From Candidatus Electrothrix yaqonensis (GTDB lineage: Bacteria; Desulfobacterota; Desulfobulbia; Desulfobulbales; Desulfobulbaceae), in assembly GCA_047651235.1 (NCBI GenBank), contig CP178758.1, positions 2,970,001-3,002,000 on the forward strand: a DNA stretch of 32,000 nucleotides, in the 5' to 3' direction. Shown piece by piece: positions 8,808 through 32,000 of the stretch. How positions within the stretch are numbered: the stretch's first letter is position 1; each line of letters begins with the position of its first letter. The notes beneath the pieces are model-generated. The model had not been told where the DNA came from. It saw only the letters and a list, made by a program, of their open reading frames with translations, and did not search any database. The translations under genes and the position numbers were made by a program.

Positions 8808-9842
8808 TAGACCTCCTGCAAAACTTGGTGATTTGACAGAAACGGCGGATGCTGATATTTTTTCGGTCACTTTTTCGATTATCAACCCCGGAGGTCTGAA
8901 AATCATGCTCACATTCGAAAAACTCTCCCGCCGCCCTGAAACATTCCGCCGTCTGACCGGTGTCGATATTGATCTTTTCAACGGAATGACGGAAAAGATC
9001 CGCCCTTTATGGGAAGAGCGGAGAGATAATTTTGAAAAGGGCGGGAGAAAGCACAACTTGGAAGGAGCTGAAAACCACCTTCTCGCCATGCTCCTGCGAA
9101 GTCTTCGCTTATCTATTACCGTTGTTACGTGACATATGAGTTCCTCAGTTTTTTCTTCGATTCCGATGAGACGACGGTGATGCGCGCAGTGAAACGGATG
9201 GAAAAAATCGCGGTACGGGTGATTCATATTGAAAAAAAGCGTGAAATCACACGGGAAGATGCGGAATACCTGATAATCGATGCGACGGAACAGCCGGTTC
9301 AGCGCCTGAAGAAAGGACAGAAGAAGTATTACAGCGGAAAGAAGGGAAAACACACGCTCGGAACGCAGTTTACCGCCGGTCCCGACGGACGGATTTTTTC
9401 GGTTTCGGCGTCGTATCCCGGAAGTGTTCATGATTTCAGGATATATAAGGAACAGAAGGGGCGGGAGCGTTTTCACGGTATTCCGAAGAAGGCCGACAGC
9501 GGATATCAGGGAATCGCGGCATATGACCGGCGCGCCGAAATTCCCTTTAAAAAGCCCCGGAACGGTGAACTGACCGCCGAACAGAAGGCATATAATCTTG
9601 ATTTATCGAAAAAACGTATCAAAGTTGAGCATGTCATAAGAGAGGTGAAGGTATTTAAAATCATGTCGGAAACATACCGGAACAGGCTTAAAGGCCATAA
9701 TATAAAGAAAAATATCATATCCGGCATAGTGAATATGAAGGTTGCGGCACGGAAAATGAAGAAAGCTGCCTGAAGCGGAAAATTTTGAAAAAGGGAAAAA
9801 CCTCACCGCCTGAGAAGAACAGGCAGTTCTGCAGGAGGTCTA
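8808..9842 (+). mobile_element. IS5-family-like (DDE_Tnp_4 type) insertion sequence, 1035 bp, with 17/18 bp terminal inverted repeats
   Basis: TAGACCTCCTGCAAAACT at 8808-8825 compares with the reverse complement of 9825-9842, TAGACCTCCTGCAGAACT. The terminal TA at each end may be a target duplication rather than part of the IR. Confidence 0.75.
8905..9773 (+). pseudogene. DDE_Tnp_4-type transposase split by a -1 frame change
   Basis: orfA starts at the ATG at 8905 (GGAGG 10 nt upstream) and reads MLTFEKLSRRPETFRRLTGV...ENHLLAMLL, stopping at 9132. orfB (9129-9773) carries YVTYEFLSFFFDSDETTVMRAV (HTH_Tnp_4-like) and the DDE core (IIDATEQPV...GKHTLGTQF...PGSVHDFRI...ADSGYQG). The frames must switch between about 9097 and 9113, and no A6G-type slippery heptamer is present. 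Confidence 0.7.
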
Positions 9843-9930
9843 AAGCTGGAGCAGTATAAACTGAATACAGGATCAGCTATCTGAAAGGCGTGAAGGCAAA
9901 ACTTATGCCTCTTGTGGGCATATTCAAATT

Positions 9931-10251
9931 ATGTTGCTCCAGCTATACCATATCTCTACACAGGATAAGATTGAGCCGAATCTTGTCTTTTCAGTGGATT
10001 TACTTGACGATCTCACGCAGGAAGATTTCGATAAACTTGTTCTGATTTCCAGATACGGCATAAGCAGAAAAAATCTGCTGAAAAAATTATGGAATGAAGT
10101 AAGTGTATTGAGTCATGAAAATATTATCAGCTCGATTTTGTCCGAAGATGTCATCAATAAAATACGCCTGGTGATTAAACGGGACACCGGATGCAATGTG
10201 GAAAATGAAAAAATACAGGAAGCCATTGAGGATATTCTGCAGATTAATTGA
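9931..10251 (+). CDS. Hypothetical protein (106 aa), AT-rich, no recognisable domain
   Basis: The ORF ends 12 nt upstream of the AIM24-family gene. There is no clear SD before the ATG. It is acidic and helical-looking, and GC is well below the window average. Confidence 0.4.
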   Translation: MLLQLYHISTQDKIEPNLVFSVDLLDDLTQEDFDKLVLISRYGISRKNLLKKLWNEVSVLSHENIISSILSEDVINKIRLVIKRDTGCNVENEKIQEAIEDILQIN

Positions 10252-10263
10252 GGAAGCCAGCTC

Positions 10264-11040
10264 ATGCATAATGAAGAGTTATTTGAAATAATAGAAACCG
10301 AGCAGGTGCCCGGCGCGAAATTTGAGGTTGTGCAGTATAAATTCTTAAAGGGTTCTGACAACCTCTATGTTGCGGAAAAAATCTTCTTTGCCCGACAGGC
10401 GGATATTTATCTGAAAATGATACGTATCACGCTGGATAAAAGCGAAACCCTGATTGAACCGGGAGCGCTGTATTTCATGCGGGGCGCGTTACAGCTGGAA
10501 TCCGACATGCAGGGCAGCCTCAGCAGAGGGCTGATGCGCAAATTCACTACCGGCGAAACCCTGTTTCAGTCGCGCATCAGGGGAACCGGCGAGATTTACC
10601 TGGAACCGAGCTTCGGCTATTATTCCTTGTTTAATATTGAGGATGATGCTCTGATTGTTGATAAAGGCGCGTTCTATTGCACTTCAGCCGGTTTGGAGGT
10701 CAGTGCCAAAATGCAGAGCAATGTCTCCAGTGCCCTGTTCGGCGGGGAAGGGCTTTTTCAGACCCAGATCAAGGGAACCGGGGTGCGTGTCCTGGTCTCG
10801 CCGGTACCGACCAGTGAGCTGCTCATGTACGAGCTGGCTCCGGGAGAAAAGCTCTCTGTTGACGGCACCTTTGCCTTTGCCCGCACTGCCGGGGTTGAGT
10901 TTCGGGCGGAAAAATCAGGCAAAGGCCTGCTCCAGTCCGCAACCAGCGGCGAAGGCCTGCTGCAGACCTTTACCGGCCCCGGTCTGGTATGGATCGCCCC
11001 GACCGAAGAGGTGTACAAGCGTCTGGGCAGGATGGATTGA
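10264..11040 (+). CDS. AIM24 family protein (DUF124 / TIGR00266-like)
   Basis: 258 aa. Repeated AIM24 hallmarks are GEGLFQTQIKGTGVRVL, GETLFQSRIRGTGEIYLEP, SGEGLLQTFTGPGLVWIAP and ALIVDKGAFYCTS. GAGGAA lies 8 nt upstream of the ATG. Confidence 0.75.
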   Translation: MHNEELFEIIETEQVPGAKFEVVQYKFLKGSDNLYVAEKIFFARQADIYLKMIRITLDKSETLIEPGALYFMRGALQLESDMQGSLSRGLMRKFTTGETLFQSRIRGTGEIYLEPSFGYYSLFNIEDDALIVDKGAFYCTSAGLEVSAKMQSNVSSALFGGEGLFQTQIKGTGVRVLVSPVPTSELLMYELAPGEKLSVDGTFAFARTAGVEFRAEKSGKGLLQSATSGEGLLQTFTGPGLVWIAPTEEVYKRLGRMD

Positions 11041-18556: not shown

Positions 18557-18576
18557 GCTAACCTCTGCAGGTTAGC
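18557..18576 (-). terminator. Possible terminator hairpin after the three-gene operon (weak U-tract)
   Basis: A perfect 8 bp stem GCTAACCT / AGGTTAGC with a 4 nt loop sits 69 nt below the ATPase stop. The minus-strand 3' flank GTACTGTTAAAATC is only moderately U-rich. The site is also within the upstream region of the helicase gene. Confidence 0.3.
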
Positions 18577-18644: not shown

Positions 18645-20363
18645 TCAGTTTCCCCCTGTTCCTCCAAACTGAATCCCCAGCAATTTGTTTTCCGGGTTAT
18701 CTCCTGTCAGTTTGAGAGCCACGGCTTTTTCGAGTGCATTAATCTGTTCATCCGTCAGATACGGACGCATTGCTTGATAATTTTCCGTATTTAGGGAGGC
18801 TATATACTGCTTTCCGATTCTTTCTGCATTGGTTGCAACATGGGTAAACCAAGCTGCACGGACTTTCGGGCATACATTTGCGAATAATCGGTTGTCATGC
18901 CATAAAAATCCCATACTGTGGTGAGAGCCTAGTGTGAGCATCAGCCAATCAAAACAGAGAATTCTGGCATCATTGATTCCGTCAGAATCATCGCCCTGTA
19001 TTTCTACAGATAAATCATACCGTATCTGGTTTCTGTCACTTGAGTTATTTTCAAGCACTATTCCTGCCGGAGTGTGCGGGTACAGCTGCTCTACCAGTTC
19101 CGCATAGACAAATTCATGTTGGCGTAACGGCTCAGTTTGAGTAAATTCAGCAGCTTCTTTGTTTTCCTCCAGCATCTTTTCTTTGATAGTTTGTTTCTGC
19201 TGTTCCAACTTCTGTGCAAAGGCCATGTATTCTTTTAATCGGGCATGCTCTTCCTCTAAGCCAGCCAGTTGCGCGACAAGTGCTTTGTATTCATCAATAG
19301 CCCTTTTGCCATTCAATACCCGCAATAAGTTGTCACGGTTTCTGCCCTGTTCCTGAATCTTTTCTTCCAGTCTTTTTATTTTATTAATAATGCGTTTTTT
19401 ATCTGCTGCCAATCTGGTCTCACGGTTCTCAGTCAGTTTCTTATGGAAATTTTCAACAGCTTCAAAATGGCGCAGGGCTTCCGGTTGAAAAAGATGGCTC
19501 AAACCGGAATAAAGTTGTTGTAAATCACAATTTGATATATCCGGTTGCCGGTTGAGCAGTTTTTTTATTCCGTCCAGTTGAAAGCGTAATGCTGCAGCCT
19601 GTTTTTCAAGTTCCCGTAACTTTTTCGTCTGGGAATCTGCTTCCAGAATAAGCTCATGATAGTTGTCAGCCACTTCAAACGATTCAAGGTCAGTACGCAG
19701 CTTCGGAATTTCCCGGTCAAGCCAGTCAATCCTGACTTTCGGCTTGATGCCGGTCCGGAAGATGTCCCGTAATACCTGATCCCTTTCAAAAAGGCTTATT
19801 GATTTCTTCAGTTCGTCCAGATTCGTTTTGTATTTTTTTTTGCTGGCAACCGGAAAACAATCAATGCCCAACAAATACAGACTGCGCAGCTGTGCATCAA
19901 AAGGATTCTCTTTATGCGTTTTTACGGGGGCTTCACAATCGCTTCTCAACAAACGGGCAAACCGGGAAAACAATGATCTGAAACTCAATCCGGGCAGTTC
20001 ATCATCTATATGAAATGCTCCGCACTCATTAAGCCACTGACGATATTTCGTTAATTTGATAGCGTTGCCGTCCAGCAACAACTGCTTACCGTTACCGCTT
20101 CGTTCAACAAGGTGTTCTGTTGAATTAACTGAAAAGCGCAGCCTGAAAATCCAGTCAGGCACAGCATGCTGCAATTTTTTATTGGCATTGGCACCGAGAC
20201 AGTGGTGAATCAGTCCCAGGGCAAGCGTCTTACCTACGCCATTGCTGCTTCCTTCTTCTTTTGGATCTTTTGCTCCGTCTCCTAAAATCAGTGTCAGACC
20301 AACAGGATTAAACGAAATTGATTTAAAACTGCTCTGATCAGCGGCAAGTTCAATAATCTTCAT
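18645..20363 (-). CDS. DUF2326/YydD-type ABC ATPase with a long coiled-coil insert (ABC-3C / Lamassu LmuB-like component)
   Basis: 572 aa. The N-terminus is FKSISFNPVGLTLILG...SSNGVGKTLALGLIHHCLGA (Walker A). About 230 aa of E/K/L/Q-rich heptad-like sequence follows (LRELEKQAAALRFQLDGIKKLL..., IKRLEEKIQEQGRNRDNLL..., LEEEHARLKEYMAFAQKLEQQKQTIKE). The C-terminal part has a Walker-B-like GFLWHDNRLF. Confidence 0.8.
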   Translation of the reverse strand: MKIIELAADQSSFKSISFNPVGLTLILGDGAKDPKEEGSSNGVGKTLALGLIHHCLGANANKKLQHAVPDWIFRLRFSVNSTEHLVERSGNGKQLLLDGNAIKLTKYRQWLNECGAFHIDDELPGLSFRSLFSRFARLLRSDCEAPVKTHKENPFDAQLRSLYLLGIDCFPVASKKKYKTNLDELKKSISLFERDQVLRDIFRTGIKPKVRIDWLDREIPKLRTDLESFEVADNYHELILEADSQTKKLRELEKQAAALRFQLDGIKKLLNRQPDISNCDLQQLYSGLSHLFQPEALRHFEAVENFHKKLTENRETRLAADKKRIINKIKRLEEKIQEQGRNRDNLLRVLNGKRAIDEYKALVAQLAGLEEEHARLKEYMAFAQKLEQQKQTIKEKMLEENKEAAEFTQTEPLRQHEFVYAELVEQLYPHTPAGIVLENNSSDRNQIRYDLSVEIQGDDSDGINDARILCFDWLMLTLGSHHSMGFLWHDNRLFANVCPKVRAAWFTHVATNAERIGKQYIASLNTENYQAMRPYLTDEQINALEKAVALKLTGDNPENKLLGIQFGGTGGN

Positions 20364-20628
20364 AACTAACCAGCTTTATTCTACTGCTGTTGCTGTCAAC
20401 AACTTCAATCTGCTGTAAGGCAAACAGAATATCCACAGCGAGAATCAAATGCTCAAAAGGTGGGCGCGATAACCAACCGGAATTATCCCGATCAATTAAG
20501 CTCCAAAGTTCATCCAATGTTCGTGGTTGGCTGAGAAGACCGCGCAGGAATCCTGCCAAGCCGACTAATGAATCGCAGAATCGAACATGTTTATGTGGTG
20601 CTAATATCATCTGGATGTTCATAGGCAT
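20350..20628 (-). CDS. Small helical protein, ABC-3C middle component-like (LmuC/DdmB position)
   Basis: About 92 aa, with sequence FCDSLVGLAGFLRGLLSQPRTLDELWSLIDR...PPFEHLILAVDILFALQQIEVVDSNSSRIKL, which looks like a winged-helix middle component. It overlaps the ATPase start by 14 nt and the effector 3' end by 20-50 nt. The start is uncertain (TTG 20640; ATG 20628, 20622 or 20610). Confidence 0.6.
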   Translation of the reverse strand: MPMNIQMILAPHKHVRFCDSLVGLAGFLRGLLSQPRTLDELWSLIDRDNSGWLSRPPFEHLILAVDILFALQQIEVVDSNSSRIKLVSYEDY

Positions 20629-21541
20629 CACACGTTTCAAAATATTTCGCTATAACGACCTGTGCGGCCTCCCGGTATGCTTTTAAGCTATGGGGGTGTT
20701 TTTTCATGTGCGGAGGTATAAGCTCCTCAACCATCCATACGTATCGTATATTCGGATACCCGTCATTGTTTTTGCGAATTTTCTCTTTACTTTTTTCATA
20801 TATTTTTTTTATTTCTCCGGCAATACTCTGCGTTAATCCCGGTCGATTCTGGAGAAAAAAATCAATATCTTGGCTTTGATAATAATAGAACTTGATGTAG
20901 TCCGTTACCGGTTGCGTTAATCCATTAAGCTGAATCTTCCCGCCAAATTCAGGGGCTGATTCACAGAGAAATGGTGAGAGAACCGAATCTTTATCTGCTA
21001 AATGAGTCAGTAGCTCACTCACGGCCTGAGGATCAATAAAGTTGGGTACATCAGAGGGAACCCCGCCGATAATGGACATTTTTTGATCATCGGTAAGTTC
21101 CATAAAGAGCTGTTCAAGTCTCCCGGCGTTCCATACTCCCACTTCCTCTAATTCGTATTGCTCCTGCAACGTTATCATTGCCTGACTTAACGGTGCAGGA
21201 ACTCCTTCGAAGCGATCGTTATAGACAAAATGATAGCATCTTGCCTTTGGCCATTTCTGTAGAATTTTATCAAAATCTCCTGTTATTTTTCCAGTGATAG
21301 TTGAGAGAGACTCTGTCGTTTTTGATGCTTTCGGTCCATAAACCTGAAAATATCTTTTTTCTAATGGGAACCAGCCGTCATTACCGCCATCTCCCCAGTT
21401 CCCATGAGGTTGAACAGATTCAAAATCAGGATAGCGATATATCATCACATCCTGAAAGAGCTTTTGAAACGATTCACCGGACACTTCATAAAACTTCAGC
21501 TTTAAAAGCGTCCTGTACCAGAAGTTATCTCCTGCACTCAT
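20591..21541 (-). CDS. Putative effector of the three-gene system: N-terminal Mrr/PD-(D/E)xK-like nuclease domain plus a helical C-terminal coupling domain
   Basis: 316 aa. FQKLFQDVMIYRYPDFESVQPHGNWGDGGNDGWFPLEKRYFQVYGPK resembles the Mrr_cat pattern (fE.l...GDgGiDg...vQcK), with Tyr in place of the Lys. The C-terminal ~150 aa are helical and end in AAQVVIAKYFETCDAYEHP. The ATG overlaps the lysA stop (ATGA). Confidence 0.55.
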   Translation of the reverse strand: MSAGDNFWYRTLLKLKFYEVSGESFQKLFQDVMIYRYPDFESVQPHGNWGDGGNDGWFPLEKRYFQVYGPKASKTTESLSTITGKITGDFDKILQKWPKARCYHFVYNDRFEGVPAPLSQAMITLQEQYELEEVGVWNAGRLEQLFMELTDDQKMSIIGGVPSDVPNFIDPQAVSELLTHLADKDSVLSPFLCESAPEFGGKIQLNGLTQPVTDYIKFYYYQSQDIDFFLQNRPGLTQSIAGEIKKIYEKSKEKIRKNNDGYPNIRYVWMVEELIPPHMKKHPHSLKAYREAAQVVIAKYFETCDAYEHPDDISTT

Positions 21542-22871: not shown

Positions 22872-23288
22872 TTATCGTATCCAATAGGGATGAACTTTTT
22901 TCAATTTTTCAAGAGCATCTAACTCATGATGATCAGCTGTAACAAGGCGGGCCTTTCGTATATTCGCCTCCGCAACAGCAATAGAATCAGCAAGAGAGAG
23001 TTTGTGTTGCGCTTTCAGAGAACCGGCTTCAAAGAAAACTTTATCGGATAGGGAGGAGATGATTTGAACAGGCAGCTTTTTTATCGTCTGTAGAACCAAA
23101 TCGGCAGTTTCATACCCATCATCTCTGTATACACCGTAGTATATCTCCAGCAGATTGATTTTGTGGATTACTAATTGATGCGTTTTGTTATCGGCATTCT
23201 CAAGTAAATCTTCAACAAGATCCGCGCCGGGTTCATCGCCTAAAAAAGCGATCAGGGCACAGGCATCCAGTACAAAGGTTTCGTTCAT
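22872..23288 (-). CDS. vapC: PIN-domain toxin VapC
   Basis: 138 aa. PIN acidic residues are in the expected contexts (FVLDACALIAFL, LLEIYY, LSLADSIAVAEA, LVTADHHE). Confidence 0.8.
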   Translation of the reverse strand: MNETFVLDACALIAFLGDEPGADLVEDLLENADNKTHQLVIHKINLLEIYYGVYRDDGYETADLVLQTIKKLPVQIISSLSDKVFFEAGSLKAQHKLSLADSIAVAEANIRKARLVTADHHELDALEKLKKVHPYWIR

Positions 23289-23509
23289 CTCTCTGCGGCC
23301 TTATCTTCTTTTTTTAATTGGAAATATCTTTCCGTGGAAAAATTTTTATTTTTCAGAACACCTCTTGCTTCTTTCACTGATCGGGGCACCGTTTTCATCA
23401 TAATGCCGTCTCCAACCTCTATAAATTGGATTACTTTTCCGATGAGTTTCTTGGCTATCTCATTCGGGAGCTTAATGTGCGCCGTATCGATTTTCAGTGT
23501 ATTCTGCAT
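23285..23509 (-). CDS. AbrB/MazE/SpoVT-family antitoxin (VapB-like)
   Basis: 74 aa. The N-terminus, IKLPNEIAKKLIGKVIQFIEVGDGIMMKTV, looks like a swapped-hairpin beta-barrel. A 4 nt ATGA overlap joins it to vapC. Confidence 0.7.
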   Translation of the reverse strand: MQNTLKIDTAHIKLPNEIAKKLIGKVIQFIEVGDGIMMKTVPRSVKEARGVLKNKNFSTERYFQLKKEDKAAER

Positions 23510-30374: not shown

Positions 30375-30543
30375 TGCAGGGGCGCCCCTCTGCGTTACCG
30401 AACCATTATGCCCGTTAAAAGGCATCTTCAGGAGCCGTAACTGCCTTAGCGCTGCCGCACAGACACAAAAAAAAGCCGCCGCATCCTGGAACCGGAATGA
30501 CAGCGGCATGGAAAAGAGTCAGCTGAGTTTTGAGCAGAAGTCA

Positions 30544-30732
30544 TCAAGATTGCTCAACAGCCTGCAGCAGCATATCAACCGAATACTTCTTCTGCCATGC
30601 CTGCCGTTCTTTCACATAGTCCCCGTACCCGTCATCAACCTTCTGAATACACTGTATAAGATTGACCACACCGAGCCTTCTGCAATAGGCATCAATCCCT
30701 GCCTGCTGAACATCATTCCCGATTTTTTTCAC
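30544..30732 (-). CDS. Small protein (62 aa) translationally coupled downstream of the PIN gene; putative cognate antitoxin
   Basis: The GTG start overlaps the PIN stop (GTGA), and GAGGTG lies 5 nt upstream. The sequence GIDAYCRRLGVVNLIQCIQKVDDGYGDYVKERQAW resembles small partners that carry a GxGDYTxER motif (from memory, unverified). Confidence 0.5.
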   Translation of the reverse strand: MKKIGNDVQQAGIDAYCRRLGVVNLIQCIQKVDDGYGDYVKERQAWQKKYSVDMLLQAVEQS

Positions 30733-31157
30733 GACATCACCTCATTCAGCCAAGTTACCGGATTATTTACCGCTATCTTCAAATCTTCAATGGTTAATGC
30801 CTGCTTCAGCAGATCGTCATCCACCGTCAGAAAAACCTCTGCTCCATTTTCTGCGCAGGCCAGATGCAGGGCATCAAAAGCCTGCATCCCCTTTTTTTCC
30901 AGCGCTTTTGCCCGCGATGAGACTGCACGGTCTATTTTGATGACATTGTCTGCCAGCCCGCTGACAAGCTCCAGCTTTTTCCTTCTGGCTTTATCAGGAA
31001 TGTGTTCAATCTCGAATTGCGCGATATTGTGCCAGCGCCGCTGTTCACAAAACGATAAAATCACCTTGACGGCCTCGGATTCAAGTCGGATACGACGGTC
31101 CGACTGGTCATCGAACGGTCTGTTCATACAGCAGTTATCCAGGTAGATATTCATCAT
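30729..31157 (-). CDS. PIN-domain protein (putative toxin/RNase)
   Basis: 142 aa. It has IYLDNCCMNRPFDDQSDRRIRLESEA, FDALHLACA and FLTVDDDL, which gives the D-E-D-D arrangement. GAGGAG lies upstream of the ATG. Confidence 0.7.
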   Translation of the reverse strand: MMNIYLDNCCMNRPFDDQSDRRIRLESEAVKVILSFCEQRRWHNIAQFEIEHIPDKARRKKLELVSGLADNVIKIDRAVSSRAKALEKKGMQAFDALHLACAENGAEVFLTVDDDLLKQALTIEDLKIAVNNPVTWLNEVMS

Positions 31158-31180
31158 AGCGAATTCTCCTCATCATATTC

Positions 31181-31300
31181 TTAGGAGTTACGCAGTTGGT
31201 TTTATAACCCGCTGATTTTGTTCAACTGACGGTTTTTGCCTCCAACAAGCGAACCTATTGTAACACTTGAGATTCTTGTTTTCAACTGCGTAACTCCTAA
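31181..31300. repeat. Perfect 18 bp inverted repeat separated by 84 nt (MITE-like element or long-range 5' UTR hairpin)
   Basis: TTAGGAGTTACGCAGTTG at 31181-31198 is the exact reverse complement of CAACTGCGTAACTCCTAA at 31283-31300. TTC flanks both ends. The left arm lies 23 nt upstream of the PIN gene ATG on the minus strand. Confidence 0.7.
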
Positions 31301-31464
31301 TTCTTTTTTTTCTGCCTGCACAGGGCTATATAAGACATCCAGGCACACTGCGTCTCACCACATTACGACCGCAACTTCTCTTTATCTTCATAAATCCAAT
31401 CCTCCACCCTCCTAAGCTTCAGCTTCTCCTTAATCTCCCTGATAGCCGTCTCTTCCTCTGAAAT

Positions 31465-32000
31465 CTACCCGGAAACAACAGAGCGGAAGTTATCAGATCG
31501 CGCCTCTCCAAGCTTGTCGTGCAGCTCATCAAGATGCCGTTCCTTATGCGCCAAAACATTATTCAGCTTATTCCGGCGTTCCTCCAGATTCCTGATGTTG
31601 GCCTCAACCTTTTCTTCCCAAGCCCGCCGCTTTCCGGCACGCTCTCGCTGATACTTTTCATATGCCTTTTGCCGCTCCGCTTTATACCTCTCCCAGCGTT
31701 GGTCCAGCAGTTCCTTGGTTTCGTTCAATGCCTCAAAGGCAAGACCCTTATCTTTGCCGAGCATGTGTTCCTTGTGCTCACGCAACATATCCCAGCCTTT
31801 TTGCAAGGCTTTGTTGCAGGCTTTCAGCTGTTCCTTCTCTTCATCAAAGGGCCCCATAATGGCATCAAGCAGCATATATACTCCGCCGGTGGCAAGAGTA
31901 AGAATGAAATCTGAAAACGCGCTGTCAACAGGCCGAGCTGCCTTGGCCTGTGATATAATCTGCTTCCCCAGCCGAGCAGACTCTTCCTTTTTCTTCTCCC
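31465..32000 (-). CDS. Charged coiled-coil protein of unknown function; 5' end lies outside the window
   Basis: The frame is open from the ORF-track ATG (31875) up to the window edge (...EKKKEESARLGKQIISQAKAARPVDSAFSDFILTLATGGVYMLLDAI...). A highly charged helical region follows (QRWERYKAERQKAYEKYQRERAGKRRAWEEKVEANIRNLEERRNKL). Confidence 0.55.
   Translation of the reverse strand, partial: EKKKEESARLGKQIISQAKAARPVDSAFSDFILTLATGGVYMLLDAIMGPFDEEKEQLKACNKALQKGWDMLREHKEHMLGKDKGLAFEALNETKELLDQRWERYKAERQKAYEKYQRERAGKRRAWEEKVEANIRNLEERRNKLNNVLAHKERHLDELHDKLGEARSDNFRSVVSG

What the first reader, a model, noticed from the sequence alone, without database searches (positions are those of the whole stretch)
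18645..21541. Three-gene ABC-3C / Lamassu-like conflict system: nuclease-like effector, small middle component, coiled-coil DUF2326 ABC ATPase
Three minus-strand genes overlap one another. The effector and middle component overlap by 20-50 nt, and the middle component and ATPase overlap by 14 nt. The gene order and sizes (316 aa, ~92 aa, 572 aa) match the effector / middle component / SMC-like ABC ATPase architecture that comparative genomics defined as ABC-three-component systems. Lamassu (LmuACB) and DdmABC are the experimentally studied members of that class. The ATPase here looks like the DUF2326/YydD clade (SNGVGKT Walker A, about 230 aa of coiled coil, FLWHDNRLF Walker B), not the classical LmuB clade. 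To my knowledge this clade has no experimental phenotype, trigger or mechanism. The operon also has clearly lower GC than its neighbours. It is the best candidate in this window for an uncharacterised immune or conflict system.
Basis: partly seen in the sequence, partly recalled or inferred. Interest (0 to 1): 0.8.

Follow-up and report, generated by a model that had tools for sequence, protein, structure and literature searches.

The report
Lamassu-like three-gene defence operon
This is an intact three-gene, probably horizontally acquired, bacterial immune-type operon in a cable bacterium: an SMC-like ATPase sensor, a small adaptor and a nuclease-like killer protein. It belongs to an already catalogued but experimentally untested branch of the Lamassu/ABC-3C family, so it is a sound but unsurprising find.

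Summary
Three overlapping minus-strand genes at 18645-21541 encode a 316-aa effector, a 90-aa middle component and a 572-aa coiled-coil ABC ATPase. This is the lowest-GC stretch of the window (42.9% against 53.3%).

All three proteins pass curated Pfam cut-offs: CTD10, MC6 and DUF2326. The ATPase matches the PADLOC candidate PDC-M68B over its full length (6.6e-76). Its predicted structure is closest to B. subtilis YydD, then to solved Lamassu LmuB chains.

The block is complete and in the same order in 11 of 11 other loci examined. These lie on plasmids, in an ICE, beside type I RM genes and near integrases; one further complete copy sits in a prophage contig. All three genes are under purifying selection (dN/dS about 0.1).

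The effector's N-terminal domain carries an Mrr-like GDGGNDG...QxY core that lacks the canonical Lys. The same domain also heads NACHT and TPR-PIN conflict proteins.

The most likely mechanism, inferred from solved Lamassu complexes, is this: an ATPase dimer plus the middle component hold the effector inactive until foreign DNA triggers its release.

However, the type is already in Pfam, NCBI annotation and PADLOC, so this is a new member of a known, untested kind. Interest is about 0.4.

The parts
20591..21541 (-). Effector gene (316 aa): N-terminal alpha/beta effector domain plus C-terminal helical ABC-3C CTD10 domain
   Evidence: ORF. Pfam CTD10 2e-11 on residues 174-308. AF2 model pLDDT 84.9. 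248 homologues found. dN/dS 0.117.
21038..21541 (-). Effector N-terminal domain (residues 1-168), a predicted restriction-endonuclease-like (Mrr-like) fold
   Evidence: Secondary-structure order alpha-alpha-beta-beta-beta-alpha-beta-alpha-beta. Weak fold hits to XisH 2inb and Mus81-Eme1. Recurrent weak Mrr_cat hits. PADLOC LmuA PDLC03852 N-terminus at 1e-3 here and 7e-7 in fusion proteins. 1420 cluster representatives carry the domain.
21371..21394 (-). Invariant G50-D51-G52-G53-N54-D55-G56-W57 motif (putative metal-binding acidic residues)
   Evidence: Invariant in 50 homologues. D51 and D55 stay invariant at 22% identity. Aligns with GDGGIDG of E. coli Mrr.
21338..21346 (-). Q66-V67-Y68 on strand beta3, the position of Mrr's Q-x-K. 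The Lys is replaced by a Tyr that is invariant in the deep alignment
   Evidence: register against Mrr VYVQAK.
21287..21289 (-). K85, an invariant Lys on the helix after beta3 and a candidate relocated catalytic Lys (inference)
   Evidence: Invariant in A1, A3 and A8. Helix 79-96 in the model.
20618..21022 (-). CTD10 helical bundle (residues 174-308), the predicted docking and oligomerisation module
   Evidence: Pfam CTD10. All-helical in the model. PDC-M68A HMMs hit this part only. Short-Lamassu LmuA CTDs are described as bundles of 5-6 helices.
20350..20622 (-). Middle component gene (90 aa from ATG 20622; the ORF is open to TTG 20640), ABC-3C MC6
   Evidence: Pfam MC6 1e-11. Conserved start and a P-H-K-H-x-R-F motif in five orthologues. 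dN/dS 0.085. Present but uncalled in L012 and L013.
18645..20363 (-). SMC-like ABC ATPase (572 aa), DUF2326/YydD clade
   Evidence: Pfam DUF2326 1.8e-31. PDC-M68B 6.6e-76. AF2 pLDDT 87.7. Foldseek YydD 3e-24 and LmuB 3e-12.
20226..20249 (-). Walker A / P-loop, residues S39-T46 (SSNGVGKT)
   Evidence: N41, G42, G44, K45 and T46 invariant in 40 homologues.
19134..19856 (-). Antiparallel coiled-coil insert (residues 170-410), with breaks near 228-235 and 351-356
   Evidence: AF2 secondary structure.
19443..19550 (-). Coiled-coil apex (residues 272-307). It is the most conserved region of the ATPase, has no CxxC zinc hook, and is the predicted partner or dimer interface
   Evidence: 47% of columns at 90% or more, against 35-36% in the heads; CxxC in 0 of 40 members. 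In solved Lamassu the LmuB apex contacts LmuC and the LmuA CTD.
18978..18986 (-). Signature-like motif S460-D461-G462
   Evidence: D461, G462 and I463 invariant. Assignment rests on its position about 30 residues before Walker B (inference).
18891..18908 (-). Walker B F486-L-W-H-D490-N491, with Asn in place of the catalytic Glu
   Evidence: W488, H489 and D490 invariant; N491 in 90% or more. Short LmuB Walker B is hhhhD[Q/S/T/E].
21538..21541 (-). ATGA junction: the lysA stop codon overlaps the effector start codon
   Evidence: Sequence ...gcc tca tga gtg.... The same position after lysA is seen in relative L006.

Best explanation
This is an ABC-three-component (ABC-3C) conflict system of the CTD10 / MC6 / DUF2326(YydD) subtype. 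It is a distant sister of short type II Lamassu (LmuA-LmuC-LmuB; DdmABC). It was probably acquired horizontally and now sits directly behind lysA in a Candidatus Electrothrix genome.

Proposed mechanism, inferred from solved Lamassu complexes and not shown here:
1. The ATPase dimerises through its heads and its conserved, hook-less coiled-coil apex.
2. The apex, together with the 90-aa middle component, docks the helical CTD10 of one effector molecule. This keeps the N-terminal restriction-endonuclease-like domain monomeric and inactive.
3. Invading DNA is sensed by the ATPase and middle component. The likely signals are DNA ends or replication intermediates of a phage or plasmid.
4. The nucleotide state of an ATPase that lacks the Walker-B glutamate gates release of the effector.
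5. The released effector oligomerises through its CTD and cuts DNA indiscriminately, stopping the infected cell or the invader.

Shown here: gene structure, family membership, fold similarity, conservation of the block and of the motifs, purifying selection, and association with mobile and defence elements.

Inferred: complex formation, the trigger, nuclease activity and the abortive outcome.
For: - **Family membership.** Pfam CTD10, MC6 and DUF2326 all score above curated cut-offs. PDC-M68B matches at 6.6e-76 over the full length.
- **ATPase fold.** The model is a split ABC head with a coiled coil of about 240 aa. It is closest to YydD (3e-24) and to four solved LmuB chains, 9hqx_f, 9hqu_A, 9uxh_F and 9ux7_A (2.9e-12 to 1.9e-11), ahead of SMC, Rad50 and SbcC.
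- **Sequence bridge to LmuB.** A Streptomyces plasmid orthologue hits PDC-M68B at 1.8e-147 and LmuB PDLC03859 at 4e-12.
- **Features shared with short Lamassu**: ATPase length of about 600 aa; Walker B Asp followed by a non-Glu residue (N491 here); some short LmuB have no zinc hook (0 of 40 members here); the LmuA CTD is a helical bundle; and the apex is the docking site, matching its status here as the most conserved region.
- **Portable effector domain.** It occurs in 1420 cluster representatives. It is fused N-terminally to NACHT STAND NTPases and to TPR + PIN-TPR-GreABC proteins. There it hits the N-terminus of PADLOC LmuA PDLC03852 at 7e-7 to 1e-5.
- **Mrr-like core.** GDGGNDG and Q-x-Y align with GDGGIDG and Q-x-K of E. 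coli Mrr.
- **Block conservation.** Complete and in the same order in 11 of 11 other loci.
- **Contexts.** Type I RM hsdM-hsdS; YhcG + AbiJ-TIR; ICE tra genes; integrase, IS and polymorphic toxin; 45 plasmids; and a prophage contig where the block lies between the repressor and integrase genes.
- **Signs of acquisition and function.** Low GC and GC3; dN/dS about 0.1 for all three genes.
- **Lamassu mechanism** as published.
Against: - No experiment exists for this subtype. PDC systems are untested candidates.
- Neither the ATPase profile nor the effector profile finds any solved Lamassu chain by sequence. PADLOC Lmu models match the window proteins only weakly.
- The effector lacks the canonical catalytic Lys (Y68). 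Its link to Mrr_cat is not significant: hhalign E = 0.0076-0.018 with probability of 5% or less. No fold hit has E below 1e-3.
- Besides the Walker-B Glu, no His is conserved at the expected H-loop position (QYIASLNTEN). ATP hydrolysis may therefore be slow or absent, and the Lamassu analogy may fail there.
- In this window the operon is not in a defence island. Only a vapBC pair lies nearby.
- No complex prediction could be run.
Confidence: 0.6

Rival explanations
1. The architecture is the same, but the biological role is competition between mobile elements rather than anti-phage immunity. Possible roles are plasmid elimination (as for DdmABC), plasmid or ICE stabilisation, or addiction.
For: Distant orthologous blocks lie on 45 plasmids, of which 25 are mobilisable or conjugative, and inside ICE transfer genes. 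DdmABC-type Lamassu responds to plasmids as well as phages. No match was found in the INPHARED phage genomes.
Against: The block is also found in a prophage contig between the repressor and integrase genes (L015) and directly after type I RM genes. Both are typical settings for anti-phage cargo. The two roles are not mutually exclusive.
Confidence: 0.15
2. The effector's N-terminal domain is not a DNA nuclease. It could be a different enzyme, an RNA-targeting nuclease, or a non-catalytic nucleic-acid-binding module, so the output of the system would differ from Lamassu-Cap4.
For: The Lys of the (D/E/Q)xK motif is replaced by Tyr in the whole family. There is no significant Pfam, PDB-sequence or fold match for the domain. 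hhalign against Mrr is marginal.
Against: The GDGGxDG motif, the helix-1 F-(E/Q) and the strand-3 Gln align in register with Mrr. Invariant D51, D55, K85 and N108-D109 argue for an active site under selection. The domain occupies the effector position in NACHT and TPR-PIN proteins and matches an LmuA effector model. From general knowledge, restriction enzymes with the Lys substituted are still active (BamHI, BglII).
Confidence: 0.2
3. It is a housekeeping SMC/SbcCD-like DNA repair or chromosome-maintenance module that is co-expressed with lysA.
For: The ATPase has the SMC/Rad50 fold. The operon start is fused to the lysA stop codon, and the position is shared with a relative. dS is similar to lysA.
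Against: GC3 is 0.39-0.42 against 0.61-0.70 in the flanks. Outside the Electrothrix-like pair, every one of the other loci has a different context, and several are on mobile elements. The family is patchy across Proteobacteria, Desulfobacterota and Actinomycetota. The Pfam families involved were defined for conflict systems.
Confidence: 0.03

Closest known systems
[quoted passage not shown] 2020 from my own knowledge; the paper was not readable here)
   Same: Gene order is effector(CTD) - middle component - coiled-coil ABC ATPase. All three Pfam models are passed. NCBI already names homologues 'ABC-three component system protein' and 'middle component 6'.
   Different: Nothing differs in architecture. 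This is a new instance, in a cable bacterium, fused behind lysA.
PADLOC phage defence candidate PDC-M68
   Same: The ATPase matches PDC-M68B over its full length (6.6e-76). The effector C-terminal domain matches PDC-M68A. Plasmid orthologues match much more strongly, up to 1.8e-147. One relative (L001) sits directly after type I RM hsdM-hsdS, the setting used to define PDCs.
   Different: PDC-M68A matches only the effector's C-terminal domain, and weakly (3.6e-4). The N-terminal effector domain is not covered by those models. The middle component has no PADLOC model hit.
Short type II Lamassu (LmuA-LmuC-LmuB; Vibrio cholerae DdmABC, Salmonella LmuACB)
   Same: Three-gene order. An SMC-like ATPase of about 600 aa with a short coiled coil. 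Walker B Asp followed by a non-Glu residue. A helical effector CTD and a small middle protein. Structural match to solved LmuB at about 1e-11 to 1e-12. Published systems use other members of the same Pfam series: CTD7/MC3 in DdmABC and PF20276/PF20289 in a lactococcal system.
   Different: No detectable sequence similarity to solved LmuB chains, and only fragmentary hits to PADLOC Lmu HMMs. Different CTD and MC families (CTD10/MC6). The effector is not Cap4. Walker B is D-N. No experimental phenotype, trigger or structure is known.
Bacillus subtilis YydB-YydD (PDB 9a6c, integrative model from cross-linking MS)
   Same: YydD is the best structural match to the ATPase (3e-24, TM 0.60). YydB is among the top fold hits of the effector (prob 0.77). 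Sources name the ATPase homologues 'YydD (DUF2326 family)'.
   Different: Only 17% identity. YydB is 481 aa against 316 aa here, so it is a larger effector protein. The function of YydBD is also unknown.
EcoKMrr / Pfam Mrr_cat type IV restriction endonuclease catalytic domain
   Same: The G-D-G-G-x-D-G strand motif, the helix-1 F-E/Q and the strand-3 Gln are in the same register. Mrr_cat is the only recurrent N-terminal-domain Pfam hit among homologues. The Lamassu literature lists 'Mrr' among LmuA effector types, shared with Avs proteins.
   Different: The window protein itself has no Mrr_cat hit. The profile comparison is not significant. The catalytic Lys of Q-x-K is a Tyr, and an invariant Lys lies on the next helix instead.
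SbcCD / Rad50-Mre11 DNA-end processing complexes
   Same: ABC head plus antiparallel coiled coil; fold hits at 1e-7 to 1e-9. SbcCD is the proposed ancestor of Lamassu.
   Different: A much shorter coiled coil, no zinc hook, no Mre11/SbcD-type phosphoesterase partner, and a mobile, patchy distribution.

Membership tests
ABC-3C (ABC-three-component) system | Coiled-coil ABC ATPase of the SMC/Rad50-like assemblage | tested here: met
   Walker A and B and a signature-like motif are invariant. The AF2 model shows a split head plus a coiled coil of about 240 aa. Foldseek hits to LmuB, SMC and Rad50. Pfam DUF2326 scores 109 bits against a cut-off of 28.7.
ABC-3C (ABC-three-component) system | Small middle component (MC family) encoded between effector and ATPase | tested here: met
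   Pfam MC6 scores 45.1 bits against a cut-off of 27.2. It overlaps both neighbours and is conserved in all loci examined.
ABC-3C (ABC-three-component) system | Effector protein with a variable N-terminal effector domain and an ABC-3C C-terminal domain (CTD family) | tested here: met
   Pfam CTD10 scores 45.0 bits against a cut-off of 28.1 on residues 174-308. The N-terminal domain also occurs with CTD11 and CTD12 and in non-ABC-3C architectures.
ABC-3C (ABC-three-component) system | Co-conservation of the three genes as one block across unrelated genomes | tested here: met
   11 of 11 distinct loci, plus one complete copy in an IMG/VR prophage contig.
Lamassu (as detected by PADLOC Lmu models) | LmuB, LmuA and LmuC HMM matches over most of the protein | tested here: not met
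   Best LmuB hit is 3.8e-5 over residues 40-91 only. LmuA is 1e-3 over residues 20-108. There is no LmuC hit.
Lamassu (structural/architectural sense, short type II) | LmuB-like fold, short coiled coil, Walker B hhhhD followed by a non-Glu residue, helical LmuA CTD, small LmuC | tested here: met
   compared with the descriptions. N491 is not among the listed Q/S/T/E but is of the same kind (non-Glu).
Lamassu | Membership of the LmuB clades in the published LmuB phylogeny, or detection by current DefenseFinder models | not testable with these tools
   DefenseFinder models and the published tree are not available here. The preprint says the ABC-3C profiles were added to the new models, so detection is plausible.
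Lamassu | A1B2C1 complex that sequesters the effector; activation by DNA ends; anti-phage phenotype | not testable with these tools
PADLOC PDC-M68 | PDC-M68B ATPase HMM | tested here: met
   6.6e-76; residues 3-566 against model positions 2-581 of 581.
PADLOC PDC-M68 | PDC-M68A effector HMM | tested here: inconclusive
   3.6e-4 and 6.9e-3, covering the C-terminal domain only. Plasmid orthologues reach 2e-12, again over the CTD only.
Mrr_cat / PD-(D/E)xK restriction endonuclease fold (effector N-terminal domain) | Significant profile match to Mrr_cat | tested here: not met
   No hit for the window protein. 3 of 50 and 5 of 135 homologues hit at E of 0.016 or worse. hhalign E = 0.0076 and 0.018 with probability of 5% or less.
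Mrr_cat / PD-(D/E)xK restriction endonuclease fold (effector N-terminal domain) | Acidic residues at strand 2 (GDGGxDG) plus helix-1 E/Q | tested here: met
   D51 and D55 are invariant. Q26 here is E in the wider family. The alignment is in register with Mrr.
Mrr_cat / PD-(D/E)xK restriction endonuclease fold (effector N-terminal domain) | Catalytic Lys in the (D/E/Q)-x-K motif on strand 3 | tested here: not met
   The motif is Q66-V-Y68. Y68 is invariant in the deep alignment, and K85 is invariant on the next helix.
Mrr_cat / PD-(D/E)xK restriction endonuclease fold (effector N-terminal domain) | Alpha-beta-beta-beta-alpha-beta core topology with a significant structural match | tested here: inconclusive

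The most novel reading that the evidence does not exclude
The DUF2326/MC6/CTD10 branch is not simply Lamassu under another name. It would be a mechanistically distinct SMC-like immune sensor in three respects:
1. Its ATPase lacks both the Walker-B glutamate and a conserved H-loop histidine, so it may act as an ATP-binding switch rather than a hydrolase.
2. Its hook-less but extremely conserved apex may form a new kind of docking or dimerisation module.
3. Its effector may be a previously undescribed restriction-endonuclease-fold variant (D-D-Q-x-Y plus a helix Lys, with no strand-3 Lys). That variant is shared with NACHT and TPR-PIN conflict proteins and may have a different substrate or chemistry from known Lamassu nucleases.
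Probability: 0.2. Interest if true: 0.65.

Novelty: new member of a known kind. Interest (0 to 1): 0.4.

Why it matters
The DUF2326/YydD branch of ABC-3C systems is widespread. The effector search returned 248 homologues, the N-terminal domain occurs in 1420 cluster representatives, and distant versions lie on 45 plasmids, in an ICE and in a prophage contig. Yet it has no phenotype, trigger or structure.

A tested example would extend the Lamassu paradigm (SMC-like sensor, sequestered effector, release and oligomerisation) to a branch that current Lamassu HMMs in PADLOC do not detect. It would also define the activity of an effector domain reused by NACHT/Avs-like and TPR-PIN systems.

This copy is a clean candidate for such work. 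It is intact, has all invariant residues, is under purifying selection and is only 2.9 kb long. It also documents a defence-type operon in a cable bacterium, wired directly behind a lysine-biosynthesis gene.

The classification itself is already in public annotation, so the value lies in enabling experiments rather than in discovery.

Tried and rejected
- **PDB sequence searches.** Single-sequence and profile searches for the ATPase and effector found only coiled-coil or chance matches.
- **Profile-profile test against Mrr.** I built a profile from E. coli Mrr homologues, but those retrieved were all at least 69% identical, so the profile had low diversity. The result stayed marginal. I therefore do not file the domain as Mrr_cat.
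- **EF-hand_7 hit in the middle component** (E = 0.0018). Rejected, because the DRDNSGW loop is not conserved in orthologues.
- **NCBIfam.** Nothing scored above cut-off.
- **Literature searches.** DUF2326, PDC-M68, YydD, YydB and CTD10/MC6 returned no functional study. Krishnan et al. 2020 was not held. The paper behind PDB 9a6c does not mention YydD or YydB in its main text.
- **Promoter and terminator scan.** No more sites than expected by chance, so the transcription unit could not be defined.
- **tRNA and Rfam scans of the window.** Both empty, so there is no tRNA integration site.
- **INPHARED phage genomes.** No match, although IMG/VR held two prophage contigs.
- **Housekeeping interpretation.** Considered because of the lysA fusion. 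Rejected on composition and on the variable, mobile contexts elsewhere.

Full report
**1.

The six-frame ORF list shows three consecutive minus-strand ORFs:
- 18645-20363, 572 aa;
- 20350-20640, 96 aa from the first possible start;
- 20591-21541, 316 aa.

Alignment of the small protein with five orthologues places the conserved start (M-N-I-Q) at the ATG at 20622. That gives 90 aa and a 32-nt overlap with the effector. The overlap with the ATPase is 14 nt.

The operon has 42.9% GC against 53.3% for the rest of the window, and is the lowest of 292 sliding windows of equal length. GC3 is 0.39-0.42 against 0.61-0.70 in the flanking lysA, argH, fn3-domain and DEAD-box helicase genes.

All three genes are under purifying selection relative to an 82-86% identical relative, L006. 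dN/dS is 0.117, 0.085 and 0.087, against 0.076 for lysA. The short overlapping middle ORF is therefore a real gene.

**2. What the three proteins are**

Pfam places each protein above its curated cut-off:

| Protein | Pfam family | Region | E-value |
|---|---|---|---|
| ATPase | DUF2326 | 424-566 | 1.8e-31 |
| Middle protein | ABC-3C Middle Component 6 | – | 1e-11 |
| Effector | ABC-3C C-terminal domain 10 | 174-308 | 2e-11 |

PADLOC matches the ATPase end to end to the candidate PDC-M68B (6.6e-76). Its Lamassu LmuB and LmuA models give only short or weak matches, and there is no LmuC hit. NCBIfam has nothing above cut-off.

The identical proteins are on record from Candidatus Electrothrix sp. 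YB6, a cable bacterium. They are named 'ABC-three component system protein' and 'DUF2326 domain-containing protein'. Other sources call ATPase homologues 'YydD (DUF2326 family)'.

**3. The ATPase**

In 40 homologues (49-86% identical) several motifs are conserved:
- Walker A: N41-G42-x-G44-K45-T46, invariant.
- A signature-like S460-D461-G462.
- Walker B: W488-H489-D490, invariant.

The residue after the Walker-B Asp is Asn in at least 90% of members rather than the catalytic Glu. The strand where an H-loop His would be expected reads Q519-Y-I-A-S-L-N-T-E-N.

The AlphaFold2 model (mean pLDDT 87.7) has these parts:
- a split head, residues 1-165 and 414-566;
- an antiparallel coiled coil, residues 170-410, with breaks near 228-235 and 351-356;
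- an apex at about 272-293.

The apex region 272-307 is the most conserved part of the protein. It has 47% of columns at 90% or more, against 35-36% in the heads. None of the 40 members has a CxxC zinc hook.

Foldseek against the PDB ranks the matches as follows:
1. The B. subtilis YydD model 9a6c_A (3e-24).
2. Four solved Lamassu LmuB chains from Salmonella, Vibrio and Bacillus (2.9e-12 to 1.9e-11).
3. SMC, cohesin, condensin, SbcC and Rad50 heads.

By sequence, however, the family profile finds no PDB chain at all. One sequence bridge does exist. A Streptomyces plasmid orthologue hits PDC-M68B at 1.8e-147 and LmuB model PDLC03859 at 4e-12.

**4. The effector**

The model (pLDDT 84.9) has an alpha/beta N-terminal domain (about 1-168) and an all-helical C-terminal domain (171-303).

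Fifty homologues share invariant G50-D51-G52-G53-N54-D55-G56-W57, Q66, G69, K85, D89 and N108-D109. I then made a deep alignment at about 22% identity, including plasmid versions and unrelated architectures. There the invariant residues are D51, D55, Y68, P70, K85 and N108.

E. coli Mrr reads ...GDGGIDGVISLDKLGLEKVYVQAKR... against ...GDGGNDGWFPLEKRYFQVYGP... here. The acidic strand and the Gln are in register, but Mrr's catalytic Lys is a Tyr.

The statistics do not reach significance:
- hhalign gives E = 0.0076 over 38 columns, and 0.018 with a broader profile.
- Mrr_cat appears only as a weak recurrent hit, in 3 of 50 and 5 of 135 members.
- Fold hits to XisH and Mus81-Eme1 are weak; from my own knowledge both are restriction-endonuclease-fold proteins.

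I therefore describe the domain as restriction-endonuclease-like with an Mrr-type motif, not as a member of Mrr_cat. K85, on the helix after strand 3, is a candidate relocated Lys. That is inference.

**5. The effector domain is a portable module**

An exhaustive profile search of 1.84 billion representatives found the N-terminal domain in 1420 proteins at E of 1e-3 or better.

Most are proteins of about 310 aa. Of 135 scanned, 89 carry CTD10, 11 carry CTD11 and 4 carry CTD12. The domain also sits at the N-terminus of NACHT STAND NTPases and of proteins of about 1270 aa with TPR repeats and the PIN domain of the TPR-GreAB-C-PIN system.

In those fusion proteins it matches the N-terminal part of PADLOC LmuA model PDLC03852 (7e-7 to 1e-5). 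That is the same model and register as the weak hit of the window protein.

The Lamassu literature notes that effector domains such as Cap4, Mrr, protease and Sir2 are shared with Avs (STAND) proteins. The pattern seen here fits that description.

**6. Conservation and context of the block**

The order effector - MC6 - DUF2326 ATPase is complete in 11 of 11 distinct other loci:

| Locus | Organism or source | Context |
|---|---|---|
| L002 | Geobacter metallireducens | Small TumE, HVO_A0114 and RHH-type genes of the kind seen in toxin-antitoxin modules |
| L004 | Xenorhabdus beddingii | Between housekeeping genes |
| L005 | Thioflexithrix | Next to IS630 |
| L006 | The 82-86% identical relative | Also directly after lysA, followed by a YhcG nuclease and an AbiJ-TIR protein |
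| L001 | A marine proteobacterial MAG | Directly after hsdM-hsdS and an AAA_21/AAA_15 ATPase |
| L008 | Paracoccus plasmid | Mobilisable plasmid, next to a recombinase gene |
| L009 | Streptomyces plasmid | Mobilisable plasmid, next to a HEPN protein |
| L010 | Halomonas | Inside ICE transfer genes |
| L011 | Pectobacterium | With an IS, an LHH/SUKH toxin pair and an integrase |
| L012, L013 | Two further genomes | Middle ORF present but uncalled |

tblastn finds distant versions on 45 plasmids and none in deposited phage genomes. IMG/VR holds two prophage contigs. In L015 the complete block lies between a CI-like repressor gene and the integrase gene.

In the window itself the surroundings are housekeeping genes: mfd, argH, lysA and a DEAD-box helicase gene. 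The exceptions are a low-GC vapBC pair just upstream of lysA and an IS transposase about 9 kb away. The effector ATG overlaps the lysA stop codon (tcATGAgt).

**7. How it most likely works**

Solved type I and II Lamassu complexes show the following:
- An LmuA1-LmuB2-LmuC1 assembly in which the kinked LmuB coiled-coil apex contacts LmuC and the LmuA CTD.
- The effector is held monomeric and inactive.
- dsDNA ends, or phage replication structures, are bound by one LmuB head together with LmuC.
- LmuA is then released and tetramerises into an active nuclease, modulated by ATP.

The present system shares every architectural element that this mechanism uses. It has an SMC-like ATPase of about 570 aa, a variant Walker B, a conserved apex, a small middle protein, a helical CTD and a nuclease-like N-terminal domain.

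I therefore propose the same logic of sequestration, DNA sensing, release and oligomerisation, ending in abortive infection or destruction of the invader. I give this about 60% confidence.

The steps are inferred, not shown. The missing catalytic Glu and H-loop His, and the Lys-less effector core, are the points where this branch could behave differently.

**8. Comparison with what is known, and novelty**

The system is a member of the ABC-3C class. All defining features were tested and met.

It matches PADLOC's PDC-M68 on the ATPase and, weakly, on the effector CTD. PDCs are 145 untested candidates derived by 'guilt-by-embedding' in BREX, DISARM and type I RM systems. They were filtered to exclude anything that matched DefenseFinder v1.2.3 or PADLOC v1.4 models. 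That explains why classical Lamassu HMMs miss this system.

It works like, and is structurally related to, short type II Lamassu. It fails the PADLOC Lmu HMM test, and I could not test it against the newest DefenseFinder models.

Published Lamassu examples use other CTD and MC families: CTD7/MC3 in DdmABC, and PF20276/PF20289 in a lactococcal plasmid system.

The only experimental datum I found for the DUF2326 clade is the title of PDB entry 9a6c, an integrative YydD-YydB model from cross-linking MS.

**Verdict.** The finding is a new member of a known, computationally defined but experimentally untested kind. Interest is moderate (0.4). The most novel reading still open is that this branch uses a new effector chemistry and an ATP-switch rather than an ATP-hydrolysis mechanism, with a probability of about 0.2.

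Noticed in passing
window 22872-23509 (-): A low-GC (0.39-0.42) PIN-domain toxin gene (vapC-like, 138 aa) with a 74-aa upstream partner sits between the fn3-domain gene and lysA. It overlaps the longest lysA ORF by 13 nt. In the relative L006 this pair is absent from that position, and a PIN gene lies upstream of argH instead. The argH-fn3-lysA cluster has thus collected different mobile cargo in the two genomes.
   Followed up: partly
window 21538-21541: The lysA stop codon and the effector start codon overlap (ATGA). In L006 the two genes overlap by 17 nt. A horizontally acquired defence-type operon is therefore fused to the end of an amino-acid biosynthesis gene, which suggests read-through expression. 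No promoter or terminator signal above chance was found.
   Followed up: partly
proteins P0323, P0307 (NACHT) and P0331, P0339 and others of about 1270 aa (TPR + PIN-TPR-GreABC): The effector's N-terminal domain has no Pfam model of its own, yet it heads STAND NTPases and TPR-PIN conflict proteins. It may deserve definition as a separate effector-domain family, with consensus GDxGNDG...YYQVYAPE...K...D...ND.
   Followed up: partly
L001 337-4808: In a marine proteobacterial MAG the three-gene block directly follows a 591-aa AAA_21/AAA_15 (OLD/AbiEii-like) ATPase, hsdM and hsdS. This is the RM-embedded setting used to define PADLOC PDC candidates. The contig ends before any hsdR could be seen.
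   Followed up: partly
L015 4120-10198 (IMG/VR UViG_3300011489_000006): A prophage contig carries the complete block between a CI-like repressor gene and the integrase gene, next to replication-initiation and Holliday-junction-resolvase genes. From general knowledge, that is a typical slot for prophage-borne defence cargo.
   Followed up: partly
L012 6730-7014 and L013 6729-7004: The middle-component gene was not called by the original gene callers in these two assemblies, although the ORF is intact and conserved. Small overlapping MC genes are probably under-annotated in public data.
   Followed up: yes
window 20350-20640 (middle component residues about 42-81): There is a weak Pfam EF-hand_7 hit (E = 0.0018) on a DRDNSGW loop. 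The loop is not conserved in orthologues, so the hit is almost certainly spurious.
   Followed up: yes
window 9001-10500: A low-GC (0.42-0.46) stretch with strong positive GC and AT skew contains a DDE_Tnp_4/DDE_Tnp_1 transposase ORF (9129-9773). This is an IS element unrelated to the operon.
   Followed up: partly
window 18557-18576: A perfect 7-bp inverted repeat (GCTAACC-TGCAGA-GGTTAGC) lies in the 207-nt spacer between the ATPase stop codon and the DEAD-box helicase gene start. It has no T-run, so it was not scored as a terminator.
   Followed up: no
window 30500-32000: Strongly negative GC skew (-0.23) at the right-hand end of the window. Not examined.
   Followed up: no
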